Below, piece after piece: positions 7,901 to 61,874 of a DNA stretch of 64,000 nucleotides (position 1 is the stretch's first letter; each line of letters begins with the position of its first letter). The position numbers and the translations under genes are program-made. The stretch covers positions 6,572,001 to 6,636,000 of the forward strand of contig CM075989.1 in NCBI GenBank assembly GCA_038087875.1, read 5' to 3'. A model generated the notes under the pieces. That model did not search any database, was not told the DNA's origin, and was given only the letters and a program-made list of their open reading frames with translations. Source of the DNA: Malacoraja senta (Eukaryota).

Positions 7901-10279
7901 CATGCTGTGCAGCCACTTGCTTTGTCTTGTTTCACAAGTCGATGACATTGCACAATGAAAACATACTTTGAAGTCCCTTCTCTTTCTTTTGATTTATCAA
8001 ATTCTACACTTACTAGCAGTTAGAGATAAAGATCCTAAAGGTGGTGTTTAACCTTTTGTTCTCAGACTACACCTGAGTGGATTGTTTATTTGATGGAAAA
8101 GTCCCATCTGTAAGAATACTCAATTGCTAAGGTAAGGCAAACAGGATATTTTCAGGTTGGAGTTAAAATCGAGGGGGGAAACATTACATCCCTTAAGTGC
8201 GTCCAGCACTTTGTGTTTTGTTCAGGATTCCAGCATCTCGTGTCTCCACAATTACATGATTGTTGGATATTGTATTTTTTTTTTAATATCTTCAAAGAAA
8301 GTAATTGTAAAGCATCTACTCCAAATGTGTATGTACTATTGAAATGGAACATATGGCATCGCTGACAAACTTTGGACAAGTGAGTTGAGTATAATCACAG
8401 ATGCATACTTGTAAGAACGTCCCTCAATGTATCTTTCAGAGCATACAATATCTATTTTAATTCCTGATCTTAAAATTTTGTGTTCTGTTCTTTCTTACTT
8501 ATTTCTGTTTGTTCTCAACTGATATGGAAGTGTCTTATTTCCCACATGTGTTGACCAAATGTGCGAAGCTACTGATTCCTAGTGATTTTAAACCGTAAAT
8601 TATCTTGACGCTTTTTATCATATCTAATCTATGGGGAATTGGGACAATTATTTTGCACTTTGACCTTTTAATACTGTTACAGTAGCTGTCTTTGTAATGA
8701 TTATATAACACTAGTTTTTGGGTTGGACTTTAAATGCAACTAATTTATGATCCATTTGGTATGTGTTACACTGGAGAATTATGTCGGTGAGAAGGCTCAT
8801 GTTTGTCAAACTATATCAGCTTATTTTGTGTAGTTTCTGGAATAATTCACACTGGATGGTTTGGGTTGATTTTTTAGGTCTTATTTGAAAAGAATGTAAA
8901 ATATATAGAAAATAATATGTATTATTAGCAAATCTCTGATTTGATTATCTTGATTTCTGTTGTAATGACTTAATCTCATCTACCAATAAATATCTTTATT
9001 GCATTATTTATTTCAGTTTATGGGCATTCACTCATCTCTAGTGAATGCACAACTTTACATGAGCTTCTTTCCCAGGAGAAATCGCACAATACAGGGCATC
9101 TCTGCTTCTCTGCTTCATTATTGAAAATGTCAAATTACCAATTGAAGGAAAGGGTTACATTCATATCTGTTCTTGCATGTTCTCCAACATTTAACTCCCA
9201 GTAAGGTATAATAACTGAAAGTTATCGTCATAGCACATTACATAACATCAAATTTCTCTATAGCAAGTATTTTTGCAGTATTCAGTTTGCGGGCAATTAA
9301 TCTAGATGTACAGGTTCAAGTGCCTAGGGGTGGCAAGGTGGTGCCGTGGTAGAGCTACTGCCTACAGCACCAGGGACCCGAGTTCAATCCTGGCTATGGG
9401 TGCTGTCTGCATGGAGTTTGTACATCCTCGCCATGACCATGTGGGTTTTCTCCGGGACCTCCGGGTTTTTTTCCCACACGTACAGGTTTATAGGTCATTG
9501 GCTCGATAAAATTATAAATTCCCCCTAGTGTGTAGGATAGAGTTAGGATCGCTGGTCACACCGACTCAGTGGGTCGAAGGGCCTGTTTCCACGCTGTATC
9601 TCTAAACTAACCTGAACTGAAGGGTCTTGATCAGAAACGTCACCCATTCCTCCTATCCAGGGATGAATGAAATTCTTTATTATCATTATAACATGTAAAC
9701 ATGTACAACGAAATTAAAAATGCCAACCAGTCAGTGCACACATTCACACATTATCTAAAAGCTAACGATACGTAAAAGAGAAATATCTAAAATAAACAAC
9801 TAAAATAAATAACATGAAAAAAAACAAGCATAAACACAACCATACATTCTTCTGTCGATTTCACAATCCCTTTGGTGTGTAGCGCACCTGCACTCATTTG
9901 GTGGCTACATTAAGTGTAGTTATTGCTGTGGGATAAAAACTGTTTTAGAGTCTGTTTGTCCTTGTCCTCGTTGATCTGTACCGTCTGCCTGACGGCAGCA
10001 GTTCAAACAGGGAGTGTCCGGGGTGGGAAATGTTCATTATAATGTTCTGGGATGCTGCCCGTCCTGTTGAGTTACTCCAGCATTTTGTGTCTATCTTCGG
10101 TTTAAACCAGCATCTGCAGTTCCTTCCTACACACATCGATCTCCCTCAGTCTGTTTGCTCCAAAGCTTAGGGAAAGGATGCAGTGGTCTTTGTTGTGATC
10201 CATCCCATTGCAGTGCGCTTGTGTTTTATGCGTTAGTCAGAGGCACACAGTAAGTCCATTACTGGAAAATCAGGAGTAT

Positions 10280-10905
10280 TTTATTGTTGCCTGTTCCAGA
10301 AAGGAACAATGAAATTCTTACTTGCAGCAGCACCAGTTTGTAAACACAGTACTCAATAGATAATATCAGAAATGAATCGATGTAGTGCAAAAATAAAACA
10401 CAGCCCAAAGTCCCTGGTGTAACCAATGCAGTTTATAGTTTGGAGTTTAGTTGAAGTTCGTAATTTTCAATAGACTGATGGTTGTTGGGAAGAAGCTGTT
10501 CCTGAACCTGCATGTCACTGTTTTCAGATTCTTATAACTCCTTCACGATGACGGGAGGGAAATGAGAGTGTGGCCATGGTGGTGTGGGTGCTTGATAATG
10601 CTGTCTGCCTCTTTAGACACTGTCTTCAATGCTGGGAGGTCAGTACCCGCGATAGATGCCTGGGCAGTGTTCACCTCCTTTTGTAATTTTCTTAATTCTG
10701 GGACGTCCGAGTTGCTAAACCAGGCCGTCATGCAACCAGTCAATGTGCTCTCTACCGTGCACCCGTAGAAGTTCAAGGCAGTGTCGAGATACCAAATCTC
10801 CTCAACCTTCGAAGGAAGTAGTGGCGTTGATGAGCTTTCTTTACGATTGTGCTGGGTCCAGGACAGATCTTCAAATATATACTGCTTTGACAATTCATTG
10901 AAAGA
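10280..10905 (-). mobile_element. Rex1/Babar-type LINE 3' fragment
   Basis: NFYGCTVESTLTGCMTAWFSN...LQKEVNTAQ...HPHHHGHTLISLPS, homologous to 16280-16600. Confidence 0.75.
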
Positions 10906-60950: not shown

Positions 60951-61115
60951 AACATGTTTAAAAAAGAACTGCAGATGCTGGAAAAATCGAAGGTAGACAA
61001 AAATGCTGGGGAAACTCTGCAGGTGAGGCAGCATCTATGGAGCGAAGGAATATTCCTTCGCTCCATAGATGCTGCCTCACCCGCTGAGTTTCTCCAGCAT
61101 TTTTGTCAACCTTAA
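60951..61115. mobile_element. Palindromic Penelope terminal-repeat unit
   Basis: GCAGCATCTATGGAGCGAAGGAATATTCCTTCGCTCCATAGATGCTGC forms a perfect palindromic centre with extended arms. Confidence 0.6.
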
Positions 61116-61131
61116 AACAATATATATATGA

Positions 61132-61133
<2 letters not shown>

Positions 61134-61172
<39 letters not shown>
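61134..61172. repeat. (TA)n microsatellite
   Basis: Direct reading. Confidence 0.95.
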
Positions 61173-61175
<3 letters not shown>

Positions 61176-61186
61176 ATATGATCTAT

Positions 61187-61327
61187 CTTCTTCTTCTTGC
61201 GTATGGTGTACACAGCCTAAAGTTGTAGGACAACGTGTTCTATTTGATCTTACTTGATTGTGCATGCCAGGTTGATTGCATTCGTCGAAACAGGGCTGAC
61301 CACGTGAAGGTTGCAATCTCCCACCCC
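61187..61327 (-). mobile_element. 141-bp non-autonomous retroposon with ribozyme head and (AAG)n tail
   Basis: Flanked by the direct repeat ATATGATCTAT (61176-61186 and 61328-61338). Ends CATACGC-AAGAAGAAGAAG. No tRNA A/B boxes. Confidence 0.75.
61274..61327 (-). ncRNA. Minimal HDV/CPEB3-like self-cleaving ribozyme motif (54 nt)
   Basis: Minus strand GGGGUGG-GA-GAUUGCA-ACC-UUCACGU-GGU-CAGCCCU-GUUUCGA-CGAA-UGCAAUC. This gives P1 (G1.U wobble, one G.A mismatch), a perfect 7-bp P2, P3 ACC/GGU, L3 with the U..G pair positions, a single C-G P1.1, a mini P4 with UUCG and J4/2 CGAA with the catalytic C. Confidence 0.8.
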
Positions 61328-61716
61328 ATATGATCTATATATACTTGTATTTGTGAGTATGGGTACACACGCTGAACTTTTGTTTTCTCTCTCGCTTATT
61401 ATATTGTTTACAGAGTTCTGTGTTTACATATTGTGTTGTGTTGCTGCAAGTAAGAATGTCATTGTTCCATCTGGGACACATGACAATAAAACACTCTTGA
61501 CTCTAATAAAGTTGTGGAGAAACAAGCCCTTTGGCCCAACTTATTGTTGTTGATGATGATGTTGATACATTATTGTCACTTTTTTTTAGATTAGAGACAC
61601 AGGGCGGAAACAGGCCCTTCGGCCCACCGAGTCCACACCGACCAGCGATCCCCTCACACTAACAATATCCTGGAGACAATTGACATTTATACCAAGCCAA
61701 TTATCCTACAAACCTG

Positions 61717-61874
61717 CTGGAGAAACTCAGCGGGTGCAGCAGCATCTATGGAGCGAAGCCCGAAACGTTGCCTATTTCCTTCGCTCCATAGATGCTGCTG
61801 CACCCGCTGAGTTTCTCCAGCATTTTTGTGTACCTTCGGTTTTCCAGCATCTGCAGTTCCTTCTTTAACACAAC
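61717..61874. mobile_element. Palindromic Penelope terminal-repeat unit (second subfamily) inserted in a SINE
   Basis: Inverted arms; exact 14-bp TSD ATCCTACAAACCTG at 61703-61716 and 61875-61888. Confidence 0.75.

What the first reader, a model, noticed from the sequence alone, without database searches (positions are those of the whole stretch)
61176..61338. 141-bp retroposon whose head is a minimal HDV-like ribozyme rather than a tRNA
Seen: on the minus strand the insert begins GGGGUGG GA GAUUGCA ACC UUCACGU GGU CAGCCCU GUUUCGA CGAA UGCAAUC. This maps element by element onto the HDV nested double pseudoknot: G1.U wobble closing a 7-bp P1, perfect 7-bp P2, 3-bp P3, L3 with U at position 1 and G at position 6, a single C-G P1.1 with U.U (as in the CPEB3 ribozyme), a vestigial UUCG P4 and C-G-A-A J4/2. 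The first base of the insert, next to the 11-bp TSD ATATGATCTAT, is exactly the predicted cleavage position G1. About 75 nt of linker and a CATACGC(AAG)n tail follow. Known: HDV-like ribozymes define the 5' ends of R2, RTE and L1Tc/Ingi elements and of R2-derived SIDEs. Inference: a promoter-less mini-retroposon that cuts itself out of host read-through transcripts and borrows a LINE's reverse transcriptase. I do not know of such a family described from elasmobranchs. This copy has a G.A mismatch in P1 and may be impaired.
Basis: partly seen in the sequence, partly recalled or inferred. Interest (0 to 1): 0.9.

Follow-up and report, generated by a model that had tools for sequence, protein, structure and literature searches.

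The report
Ribozyme-headed short retroposon, high copy
This is one worn copy of a 141-base mobile element, present in thousands of copies, whose first 54 bases fold like a very small HDV/CPEB3-type self-cutting RNA, so the element can trim its own front end out of longer transcripts instead of carrying a promoter.

Summary
Window 61187-61327 (minus strand) is a 141-nt insert between perfect 11-bp target-site duplications. Its genome holds at least 5,830 exact matches to a 20-mer of the body and 3,230 to the 24-mer head. Of 69 distinct copies, 60 start with GGGGTGG and 57 carry their own TSD (median 11 bp). All end in (AAG)n.

The first 54 nt fit an HDV-like nested double pseudoknot with no real P4. 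The family majority restores P1, so the G.A mismatch is private to this copy.

The new evidence is that the same genome holds at least five other retroelement families with CPEB3-type ribozyme heads. One is a 3.8-kb LINE with open ~1,010-aa frames and an (AAG)n tail. Across these families P1, P2, P3 and P4 covary while L3, the P1.1 C-G pair and the C, A, A of J4/2 are invariant. A covariance model built without this family finds only this site in the window (28.6 bits, E about 8e-6).

Self-cleavage is inferred, not shown: polyA RNA-seq gave no 5'-end pile, and the Rfam scores are below threshold. It is a new variant of a known kind.

The parts
61328..61338 (-). Upstream target-site duplication (ATAGATCATAT on the minus strand)
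   Evidence: family D6.
61274..61327 (-). 54-nt HDV/CPEB3-type ribozyme head. The predicted cleavage is 5' of G1 (window 61327). Window coordinate = 61328 minus element position.
61321..61327 (-). P1 5' strand, GGGGUGG (positions 1-7)
   Evidence: 60 of 69 copies are identical here.
61312..61318 (-). P2 5' strand, GAUUGCA (positions 10-16). It follows the J1/2 linker GA at 61319-61320.
   Evidence: P2 is 97% paired across families, with 6 of 7 pairs changed on both sides.
61299..61311 (-). P3 (ACC/GGU) enclosing L3 UUCACGU (positions 17-29)
   Evidence: L3 is identical to the Rfam CPEB3 consensus in the alignment. In one search, 2 of the 3 P3 pairs change on both sides.
61292..61298 (-). P1 3' strand, CAGCCCU (positions 30-36). 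A31 (window 61297) is a private mutation that gives a G6.A31 mismatch. The family majority is C31.
61285..61291 (-). J1/4 G37 U38 (G37 is the P1.1 partner of C22), then UUCGA, the vestige of P4 (positions 37-43)
   Evidence: The C22-G37 pair (alignment columns 22 and 38) is invariant in 15 of 15 ribozymes.
61281..61284 (-). J4/2 C44-G45-A46-A47. C44 (window 61284) is the predicted catalytic cytosine.
   Evidence: C, A and A are invariant in alignment A1. Position 45 is G, U or C among families and subfamilies.
61274..61280 (-). P2 3' strand, UGCAAUC (positions 48-54)
61199..61273 (-). Body (positions 55-129), unrelated to the LINE sequences examined. It is predicted to form a long-range GCGUGCAC/GUGCACGC stem around a small hairpin and ends in CCAUACGC.
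   Evidence: fold; no LINE match.
61187..61198 (-). (AAG)4 tail. Its length varies among copies.
61176..61186 (-). Downstream target-site duplication

Best explanation
The insert is a dead copy of a young, abundant, non-autonomous non-LTR retroposon, here called SINE1. SINE1 carries no recognisable promoter. Its first 54 nt form a P4-less HDV/CPEB3-type self-cleaving ribozyme. When a source copy is read through by a host transcript, the ribozyme cuts 5' of G1, so the RNA starts exactly at the element's first base. The (AAG)n tail is then used in trans by the reverse transcriptase and endonuclease of an (AAG)n-tailed LINE of the same genome for target-primed reverse transcription, which makes TSDs of about 11 bp. 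Shown here: the retroposon anatomy, the copy number, the 5' ends anchored at G1, the fit to the fold, covariation of that fold across sister families, and the existence of ribozyme-headed (AAG)n LINEs with open frames. Inferred: actual self-scission, read-through transcription of source copies as the RNA supply, and which LINE is the partner. The window copy has a G6.A31 mismatch in P1 and is probably impaired.
For: Family: one search gave 1,794 first-look candidates, and all 40 scored are 96-100% identical (38 over positions 1-141, one 3-141, one 1-139). Searches gave 3,230 and 5,830 exact word matches, with 0 for the reversed controls. 5' ends and TSDs: 60 of 69 copies start GGGGTGG. 57 of 69 have an exact TSD of 7 bp or more, with a median of 11 bp, and 50 of these abut G1. 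The TSD's first base is A or G in 48 of 57, against 49% A+G in the flanks, which fits priming on the AAG tail. One search sampled 10 copies by the body word alone and all 10 carry the head. Fold: L3 and J4/2 are identical to the Rfam CPEB3 consensus, and G1 aligns with the model's cleavage position. Sister families: 39 of 59 scored RF00622 candidates in this genome exceed the 35-bit threshold, the best at 64.2 bits. All 59 were fetched and sort into five families plus one odd copy. Covariation over 15 ribozymes from 6 families: 90.5% of cells are paired against 72.2 +/- 1.5 in shuffles (0 of 500 reach it), 18 of 26 pairs change on both sides, and slid controls give 33-45%. Model R1, built without SINE1, gives a single hit in the window at 61274-61327, 28.6 bits. 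The common variants in the head (at least 10% in some run) lie at positions 8 (J1/2), 31 (C to U, giving G.U), 32 (G to A, giving U-A), 42 (P4 vestige) and 45 (the N of C-N-A-A), all compatible with the fold. The exception is C44 to U, a CpG decay product seen at about 2-13%. Partner: the F1 LINE is 3.8 kb with a ribozyme head, Exo_endo_phos_2 and RVT_1 domains, an (AAG)n tail and an 11-bp TSD. It has copies with 1,008- and 1,014-aa open frames whose 3' ends read ...ACACGAA(AAG)n. RNA: 95% of what was laid from the polyA RNA-seq run continues into unlike flanks, so copies are embedded in longer transcripts. Literature: a review's passages state that RTE and Baggins elements carry HDV-like ribozymes, lack promoters and are co-transcribed (PMC6765202). 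Minimal HDV-like 'theta' ribozymes self-cleave in vitro (PMC10879173, abstract).
Against: No cleavage was demonstrated. In the polyA RNA-seq run, no place where many molecules begin was reported at G1, and 208 listed loose-end reads cross the G1 boundary. The strand of those reads is unknown and short non-polyadenylated RNAs would not be captured, so this neither supports nor refutes cleavage. Rfam scores are sub-threshold: RF00622 gives 16.3 bits against 35 for the window copy, with no hit at all in the 2.5-kb scan. For an intact copy, RF02682 gives 14.4 bits against 44 and RF00622 gives no hit. P4 is reduced to at most one U-A pair. Differences between the majorities of subfamilies A and B are not significantly rarer in the ribozyme (2 of 54) than in the body (6 of 74), Fisher p = 0.47. 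No LINE shares the body, the exact head or the unique 3' end. The partner is therefore inferred only from the (AAG)n tail, the TSD length and the kind of head. The 69-copy sample was selected by similarity to full-length queries, which under-represents truncated copies; one truncated copy, L044, was seen.
Confidence: 0.8

Rival explanations
1. It is a short internally deleted element (SIDE-like), meaning the two ends of a LINE joined by deletion. The ribozyme is then simply inherited from the parent. This rival concerns origin only; the mechanism would be the same.
For: The genome's LINEs carry the same kind of head and tail. One F4-type copy (L119) is a head followed almost directly by (AAG)3, so such deletions do occur. 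R2 SIDEs are a precedent (PMC3414825, abstract in the listing).
Against: No LINE was found with SINE1's P1, P2 or P3 sequences, its body or its CCATACGC 3' end. The pattern for the head followed by other sequence gave 3 hits: 2 are SINE1 copies with small deletions and 1 is a lone locus. The 3'-end patterns gave 0 hits, and 16 hits of which 12 are variant SINE1 copies and 4 are unrelated loci. BLAST against the F1 LINE matched only (AAG)n. The first 10 body-word-only loci are all SINE1.
Confidence: 0.3
2. The head is mainly something other than a self-cleaver, for example an internal promoter as with Pr77 of L1Tc, or a protein-binding or 5'-end-protecting fold. On this reading the G1 start is a transcription start.
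For: In L1Tc and NARTc the same 77 nt are both a promoter and an HDV-like ribozyme (PMC3383444, abstract). No read pile at G1 was seen in the RNA-seq.
Against: The positions conserved across the six families are those the HDV-like catalytic core needs: L3, the P1.1 C-G pair, and the C, A, A of J4/2. The helices vary freely as long as they stay paired, which is the signature of an RNA fold and not of a DNA promoter. No A/B box beyond chance was found: 1,790 and 1,342 of 2,000 shuffles do as well (the motifs are recalled). A dual role is not excluded.
Confidence: 0.1
3. It is a classical Pol III SINE with a diverged tRNA, 5S or 7SL head, and the resemblance to a ribozyme is coincidental.
For: It is short, very abundant, has TSDs and a simple-repeat tail, as many SINEs do.
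Against: ARAGORN finds no tRNA. The Rfam E-value scans list no tRNA, 5S, 7SL or U6 match over the element. A/B-box matches are no better than in shuffles. The independent covariance model hit and the cross-family covariation are not expected from coincidence.
Confidence: 0.04

Closest known systems
Mammalian CPEB3 ribozyme (Rfam RF00622)
   Same: It has G1.U closing a 7-bp P1, an identical L3 (UUCACGU), CCCUGU after P1, J4/2 CGAAU, and a single C-G P1.1 next to U.U. These come from the alignment; the P1.1 detail is recalled. Sister families in this genome score 35-64 bits on the model.
   Different: There is no P4. The P1, P2 and P3 sequences are different. It is a dispersed multi-copy retroposon head, not a single intronic locus. 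It scores 16.3 bits against a 35-bit threshold.
HDV-like ribozymes at the 5' ends of RTE, Baggins and R2 LINEs (Ruminski et al. 2011, known to me only through passages of the review PMC6765202, and from recall)
   Same: The role is the same: promoter-less non-LTR elements are freed from co-transcripts by cleavage at their first base. The F1 LINE here is a direct example.
   Different: This element is 141 nt, non-coding and present in thousands of copies. Its ribozyme is a 54-nt minimal form.
R2 SIDEs (PMC3414825) and NARTc, the non-autonomous partner of L1Tc (PMC3383444); abstracts only
   Same: They are non-autonomous elements that keep an HDV-like ribozyme head and use a LINE's proteins in trans.
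   Different: SIDEs are rDNA-specific deletion derivatives that share both ends with R2. NARTc shares Pr77 with L1Tc, and Pr77 is also a promoter. SINE1 shares only the catalytic core and the (AAG)n repeat with the LINEs found, inserts genome-wide, and sits in a vertebrate-sized genome.
Minimal HDV-like and theta ribozymes of bacteria and phages (PMC10879173, abstract; Riccitelli et al. 2014 seen only as a citation)
   Same: They have a reduced peripheral structure, and the abstract reports HDV-like self-scission in vitro.
   Different: They are prokaryotic or phage RNAs found in tRNA-processing contexts, not retroposon heads.
Hammerhead-bearing SINE-like elements of schistosomes (passages of PMC6765202)
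   Same: It is a short non-autonomous retroposon that uses a small self-cleaving ribozyme.
   Different: The ribozyme class is different. Those elements are Pol III transcribed and depend on tandem arrangement.

Membership tests
HDV-like (HDV/CPEB3) self-cleaving ribozymes | A nested double pseudoknot, with P1 and P2 crossing and P3 nested inside | tested here: met
   There is a 7-bp P1 (6 pairs in this copy, 7 in the family majority), a 7-bp P2 and a 3-bp P3. Across 15 ribozymes, 90.5% of cells are paired and 18 of 26 pairs change on both sides.
HDV-like (HDV/CPEB3) self-cleaving ribozymes | A G1.U wobble at the cleavage site | tested here: met
   G1 pairs with U36. 60 of 69 copies start GGGGTGG. 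G1 aligns with the cleavage position of RF00622.
HDV-like (HDV/CPEB3) self-cleaving ribozymes | A catalytic cytosine in J4/2 followed by N-A-A | tested here: met
   This is C44-G45-A46-A47. C, A and A are invariant in A1, while N is G, U or C.
HDV-like (HDV/CPEB3) self-cleaving ribozymes | A 7-nt L3 with conserved U, C and G, and a P1.1 pair to J1/4 | tested here: met
   L3 is UUCACGU. The C22-G37 pair (alignment columns 22 and 38) is invariant in 15 of 15.
HDV-like (HDV/CPEB3) self-cleaving ribozymes | A P4 helix | tested here: not met
   Only UUCGA lies between J1/4 and J4/2, enough for at most one U-A pair. From recall, P4 is dispensable for activity. Minimal forms are reported to be active (PMC10879173, abstract).
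HDV-like (HDV/CPEB3) self-cleaving ribozymes | A score above the Rfam gathering threshold | tested here: not met
   RF00622 gives 16.3 bits against 35. RF02682 gives 10.7 and 14.4 bits against 44. The sister 54-nt ribozyme of SINE2 passes in most scored copies, at up to 43.7 bits. Rfam models do not encode P2.
HDV-like (HDV/CPEB3) self-cleaving ribozymes | Mg2+-dependent self-scission that leaves a 5'-OH on G1 | not testable with these tools
   RNA-seq showed no start pile at G1, but the library is polyA-selected and the strand is unresolved.
Classical SINE | An internal Pol III promoter derived from a tRNA, 7SL or 5S RNA | tested here: not met
   No tRNA was found. No such Rfam hit was found. 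A/B-box matches are at chance level.
Classical SINE | A 3' tail shared with a partner LINE | tested here: inconclusive
   Only the (AAG)n repeat, and loosely ACG before it, is shared with the F1 LINE. Nothing longer was found.
SIDE (short internally deleted LINE) | Both ends identical to a full-length parent element | tested here: not met
   The search was limited to patterns and to a few LINE copies.
Non-LTR retroposon mobilised by target-primed reverse transcription | Variable-length TSDs, a 3' simple-repeat tail and no terminal inverted repeats | tested here: met
   TSDs are 7-14 bp in 57 of 69 copies, and the (AAG)n length varies.

The most novel reading that the evidence does not exclude
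CPEB3-type ribozymes are the standard 5'-processing module of a whole group of (AAG)n-tailed LINEs and their short parasites in a non-mammalian vertebrate genome. Some heads share long identical stretches with the mammalian consensus, such as AGAAGCGUUCACGUCGCG and GCGAAUUCU in the F1 LINE. On this reading the mammalian CPEB3 intronic ribozyme is a domesticated retroelement head. SINE1 and SINE2 would be a promoter-less class of vertebrate short retroposons whose only functional modules are a 54-nt ribozyme and a repeat tail.
Probability: 0.3. Interest if true: 0.8.

Novelty: new variant of a known kind. Interest (0 to 1): 0.66.

Why it matters
HDV-like ribozymes are already known to process the 5' ends of LINEs, and a few LINE-derived non-autonomous elements are known in insects and trypanosomes. 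This case adds three things.

First, it is a very abundant, recently active, promoter-less short retroposon in a vertebrate-sized genome that has replaced the usual Pol III head with a ribozyme.

Second, it is a natural 54-nt P4-less HDV-like ribozyme in a eukaryote, found twice (SINE1 and SINE2) with fully covarying helices. That gives a ready-made natural mutagenesis series for the minimal fold.

Third, it shows a genome in which the Rfam model of the supposedly mammal-specific CPEB3 ribozyme passes its threshold many times, on retroelement heads. This makes the origin of the mammalian CPEB3 ribozyme directly testable.

For genome annotation, such elements will be missed or misclassed by SINE finders that look for Pol III heads.

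Tried and rejected
1. The Rfam scan of 2.5 kb around the site gave no HDV-type hit at E of 10 or less. The top hits were miRNA-like matches to flanking palindromic repeats and are spurious.

2. I looked for a LINE sharing SINE1's 3' end. A pattern requiring different upstream bases gave 0 hits. A shorter pattern gave 16 hits, of which 12 are variant SINE1 copies and 4 are unrelated loci.

3. I looked for the SINE1 head followed by other sequence. This gave 3 hits: 2 are SINE1 copies with small deletions and 1 is a lone locus, L079, which I did not follow further.

4. The excess of body words (5,830) over head words (3,230) could have meant that a LINE shares the body. This is rejected: the first 10 body-only loci on C1 are all SINE1 with mutated heads.

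5. I tested for subfamily-level purifying selection on the head and it was not significant (2 of 54 against 6 of 74, p = 0.47). Within subfamilies, divergence from the majority is lower in the head (1.7%) than in the body (3.2%). The sample is biased and I draw no conclusion from it.

6. On RNA evidence, no RNA holder was listed by the look-up of sequencing runs. The one raw polyA RNA-seq run that was laid shows embedded copies in both mate orientations and no start pile.

7. I tried to assign the F1 LINE to a clade by names of homologues. Only generic names came back ('transposon X-element', 'transposon BS') from insects, echinoderms, fishes and other animals. 'RTE-like' therefore rests on the 3.8-kb size and the single ~1,010-aa frame, not on a tree.

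8. The 3' ends of three F1-related LINE copies were not in the stretches I fetched.

9. Earlier findings of this scan: nothing was on record.

10. Literature. No paper in the library holds HDV-like + ribozyme + elasmobranch, and none of the 15 papers listed holds HDV-like. Ruminski 2011, Webb 2009 and Webb & Luptak 2011 are not held, so I cannot exclude that they list such elements. Dfam and Repbase could not be consulted.
Full report
**1. What is at the site**

Read on the minus strand, window 61187-61327 is a 141-nt insert. It begins GGGGTGGGAGATTGCAACC... and ends ...CCATACGC(AAG)4. It is flanked on both sides by ATAGATCATAT. The repeat finder confirms the 11-mer at 61176-61186 and 61328-61338, and finds a third copy at 61126-61136 beyond a (TA)n run.

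| Element | Sequence | Note |
|---|---|---|
| P1 | GGGGUGG / CAGCCCU | G1.U36, U5.G32, and a G6.A31 mismatch |
| P2 | GAUUGCA / UGCAAUC | perfect 7 bp |
| P3 | ACC / GGU | 3 bp |
| L3 | UUCACGU | |
| J1/4 and P4 vestige | GU, then UUCGA | |
| J4/2 | CGAA | C44 = window 61284 |

In element numbering, window coordinate = 61328 minus position.

**2. It is a large, young retroposon family**

The window lies in an unnamed 1.94-Gb assembly.
- A DNA search returned 1,794 first-look candidates. All 40 scored were 96-100% identical; 38 cover positions 1-141, one covers 3-141 and one 1-139.
- Exact-word counts are 3,230 for the 24-nt head and 5,830 for a 20-nt body word. The reversed controls gave 0.
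- I aligned 69 distinct copies from 76 loci. 60 begin GGGGTGG and the other 9 differ by one base.
- 57 have an exact TSD of 7-14 bp (median 11). In 50 of these the TSD abuts G1 with no extra base.
- TSDs begin with A or G in 48 of 57, against 49% A+G in the flanks. This fits priming on the AAG tail.
- That sample was picked by similarity to full-length queries. As a less biased check, I took the first 10 places on contig C1 that have the body word but no exact head word. All 10 are copies whose heads merely carry point mutations or, in one case, a small deletion.
- 5'-truncated copies exist (L044) but look rare.

At least three subfamilies are visible:

| Subfamily | P1 3' strand | J4/2 | Other |
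|---|---|---|---|
| A | CCGCCCU | CGAA | |
| B | CCACCCU | CUAA | |
| C | CCGCCCU | CUAA | J1/2 is AA |

Contigs of three DNA-type runs labelled as three coded organisms each gave 9,000-10,700 pieces on the element, with boundaries at the same two ends. One run carries this exact locus.

**3. P1 is restored in the family**

The window's A31 is private to this copy. C31 holds 85-93% of contig depth in the three runs, and 282 of 327 RNA reads. The predicted 5' strand (GGGGCGG) was not.

The other common variants in the head lie at positions 8 (the J1/2 linker), 31 (C to U, giving G.U), 32, 42 (the P4 vestige) and 45 (the N of C-N-A-A). All of these are compatible with the fold. The exception is C44 to U, at about 2-13%, which is the expected decay of the CpG formed by C44 and G45.

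**4. Is the head really an HDV-like ribozyme?**

Rfam alone does not say so.
- The 2.5-kb scan gave nothing.
- A 116-nt scan gave CPEB3_ribozyme at 16.3 bits (threshold 35, E 0.033). G1 sits on the model's cleavage position, and L3 and CGAAU are identical to the consensus.
- An intact copy gave only HDV-F-prausnitzii at 14.4 bits, against a threshold of 44.

The decisive evidence came from searching the whole genome with RF00622. 39 of 59 scored candidates exceed the threshold, up to 64.2 bits. I fetched all 59 and sorted them by eye:

| Group | Copies | Description |
|---|---|---|
| F1 | 12 | full-size ribozyme, GGGGAUC...GAUCCCU, with an 8-bp P4 |
| F2 | 5 | full-size ribozyme |
| F3 | 5 | full-size ribozyme |
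| F4 | 7 | full-size ribozyme |
| L114 | 1 | degenerate odd copy |
| SINE2 | 29 | second short element, with a 54-nt P4-less ribozyme of the same design as SINE1 (…CCCUGUUUCCACCAAUCUUUCC) |

None of the 59 is SINE1.

Aligning 15 ribozymes from the six families shows that L3, the P1.1 C-G pair and the C, A, A of J4/2 are invariant or nearly so, while the helices differ. Counting pairs on the HDV-type pseudoknotted structure gave these results:
- 90.5% of cells are paired, against 72.2 +/- 1.5 in shuffles. None of 500 shuffles reaches the observed value.
- 18 of 26 pairs change on both sides.
- The covariation score is 0.448 against 0.157 in shuffles.
- Sliding the 3' partners by 1-3 columns gives 33-45% paired.
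- P2 is 97% paired, with 6 of 7 pairs compensated.

SINE1 is the most divergent member in P1, P2 and P3, and every difference is compensated.

I then built a covariance model from the 12 non-SINE1 ribozymes, with P2, P3 and P4 as pairs. It gives one hit in the 64-kb window, 61274-61327 on the minus strand, full length, 28.6 bits, E 8.1e-6 (the calibration is rough).

My own descriptor finds one site in the window and none in 60 simulated windows. It was written after seeing the sequence and rests on recalled rules.

The isolated 54-mer's minimum-free-energy fold is P1 plus P3 (-12.4 kcal/mol). P2 appears in the fold of the whole element.

**5. Rival heads**

ARAGORN finds no tRNA. No tRNA, 5S, 7SL or U6 model matches. 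The best A-box and B-box matches have 3 mismatches each, no better than 1,790 and 1,342 of 2,000 shuffles (the motifs are recalled). A promoter function of the head, as in Pr77 of L1Tc (PMC3383444, abstract), is not excluded. However, conservation of the catalytic-core positions together with freely covarying helices points to an RNA fold.

**6. The likely helpers**

One F1 copy (L101) is a complete 3.8-kb element with these parts:
- a TSD, ACCTTAGTAAT;
- a 73-nt ribozyme;
- an ATG about 30 nt later;
- Exo_endo_phos_2 (E 1.1e-8) and RVT_1 (E 6.6e-26);
- a 3' end reading ...CACGAC(AAG)3, followed by the same TSD.

A protein search of the genome found F1 copies at 93-96% identity with open frames of 1,008 and 1,014 aa and no stops. 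Their 3' ends read ...AAAGACACGAA(AAG)n. Another LINE family, about 52% identical in the reverse transcriptase, ends ...GGACTC(GAA)4. This resembles SINE2's ...GGACTCAATAAGAAG.

The genome therefore holds several (AAG)n-tailed LINEs, and at least one has a ribozyme head and intact frames. SINE1 shares only the tail repeat with them, and loosely the ACG before it. The partner is therefore inferred, not identified. The LINE's clade was not established. Homologues carry only generic names. 'RTE-like' is an inference from its size and single frame.

**7. RNA**

No RNA holder was indexed. One raw polyA RNA-seq run, of which about 6% was read, laid 524 reads.
- 454 of the reads fit only partly, and 95% of what was laid continues into unlike flanks.
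- Both mate orientations are present, roughly 40:60.
- No place where many molecules begin or end was reported.
- 91, 85 and 32 loose-end reads run past positions 61327, 61328 and 61329.

This shows that copies are embedded in longer polyadenylated transcripts, which is a precondition of the model. It gives no evidence for cleavage. It is not evidence against cleavage either: the strand of the crossing reads is unknown, most genomic copies are decayed, and a 141-nt RNA without a poly(A) tail would not be in such a library.

**8. Mechanism, with its status**

| Step | Status |
|---|---|
| Insertion by target-primed reverse transcription (TSDs, variable repeat tail) | shown |
| 5' ends fixed at the predicted cleavage base | shown |
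| HDV-like fold under selection across sister elements | shown |
| Self-scission of source-copy read-through transcripts | inferred |
| Use of an (AAG)n-LINE's proteins in trans | inferred |
| Internal priming on the AAG repeat, so that no defined RNA 3' end is needed | inferred |

The window copy is a dead end. It has the P1 mismatch, and it differs from the run majorities at positions 31, 63, 75, 93, 118 and 121 (window 61297, 61265, 61253, 61235, 61210 and 61207).

**9. Comparison with what is known**

Passages of a 2019 review (PMC6765202) state that R2, L1Tc, Baggins and RTE elements carry HDV-like ribozymes. They state that RTE and Baggins lack promoters and are co-transcribed. [quoted passage not shown] R2 SIDEs and NARTc are the documented non-autonomous cases (abstracts). 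The principle is therefore known.

I found nothing in print for the following, within the searches and without access to Ruminski 2011, Webb 2009, Webb & Luptak 2011, Dfam or Repbase:
- a genome-wide, multi-thousand-copy short retroposon with an HDV-like head in a vertebrate;
- a P4-less 54-nt natural form in a eukaryotic retroelement;
- retroelement heads that pass the CPEB3 model outside mammals.

I did not verify that the host is an elasmobranch.

**10. Verdict**

This is a new variant of a known kind. Interest is moderate to high, mainly for the minimal natural ribozyme pair (SINE1 and SINE2) and for the link to the origin of the CPEB3 ribozyme.

Noticed in passing
L100:29-205 (G000:C13:7158718-7158894); also L093-L099, L116 and L120-L140: A second short non-autonomous family (SINE2), about 175 nt long. 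It has a 54-nt P4-less ribozyme (GGGGUC..GGAAAGA GCG UUCACGU CGC GGCCCCU GU UUCCA CCAA UCUUUCC), a tail ending AATAAGAAG, and an 11-12-bp TSD. It accounts for 29 of the 59 scored RF00622 candidates. The base at the predicted position 1 is mostly T, or is variable, rather than G.
   Followed up: partly
L101:4165-7988 minus strand (G000:C2, about 157108164-157111987): A complete 3.8-kb LINE (F1). It has a 73-nt CPEB3-type ribozyme head (61.3 bits on RF00622), endonuclease and reverse-transcriptase domains, an (AAG)3 tail and an 11-bp TSD. Other copies have open frames of 1,008 and 1,014 aa.
   Followed up: partly
Genome-wide: The Rfam model of the mammalian CPEB3 ribozyme passes its gathering score in 39 of 59 scored candidates in this genome, out of roughly 100,000 first-look candidates. 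All 39 are heads of retroelements. F1 shares AGAAGCGUUCACGUCGCG and GCGAAUUCU with the model consensus.
   Followed up: partly
L119 (G000:C5093:883085-883353, minus strand): An F4-type ribozyme head followed almost at once by ...CACAAGAC(AAG)3 and then flank. This is an element of roughly 90 nt that is little more than a ribozyme plus a tail.
   Followed up: no
L104 (G000:C8:937455-937775, minus strand): An F1 head preceded by three to four tandem partial copies of its 5' half (GATCAAGGTAGAAGCGTTCACGTC...).
   Followed up: no
window 60983-61113 and 61708-61843: These are near-perfect palindromic repeats of about 120 nt (arms 51-62 nt, 94-96% complementary) of a family that also appears in many flanks of SINE1 copies. 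They produce spurious sub-threshold miRNA hits in Rfam.
   Followed up: no
window 61126-61186: A third copy of the 11-mer TSD sequence lies 50 nt beyond the 3' TSD, with (TA)n between them. It may be a local duplication of the target region, or chance in low-complexity DNA.
   Followed up: no
L152:449-492 (G000:C1:207263260-207263303): The 3' end of another LINE family contains GAGATTGCAAC, identical to SINE1 positions 8-18 (J1/2 plus the P2 5' strand), just before GGACTC(GAA)4. An 11-nt match could be chance.
   Followed up: no
L079:1431-1522 (G000:C2288, about 64581-64672): A lone SINE1-type ribozyme head followed by unrelated sequence instead of the SINE1 body.
   Followed up: no
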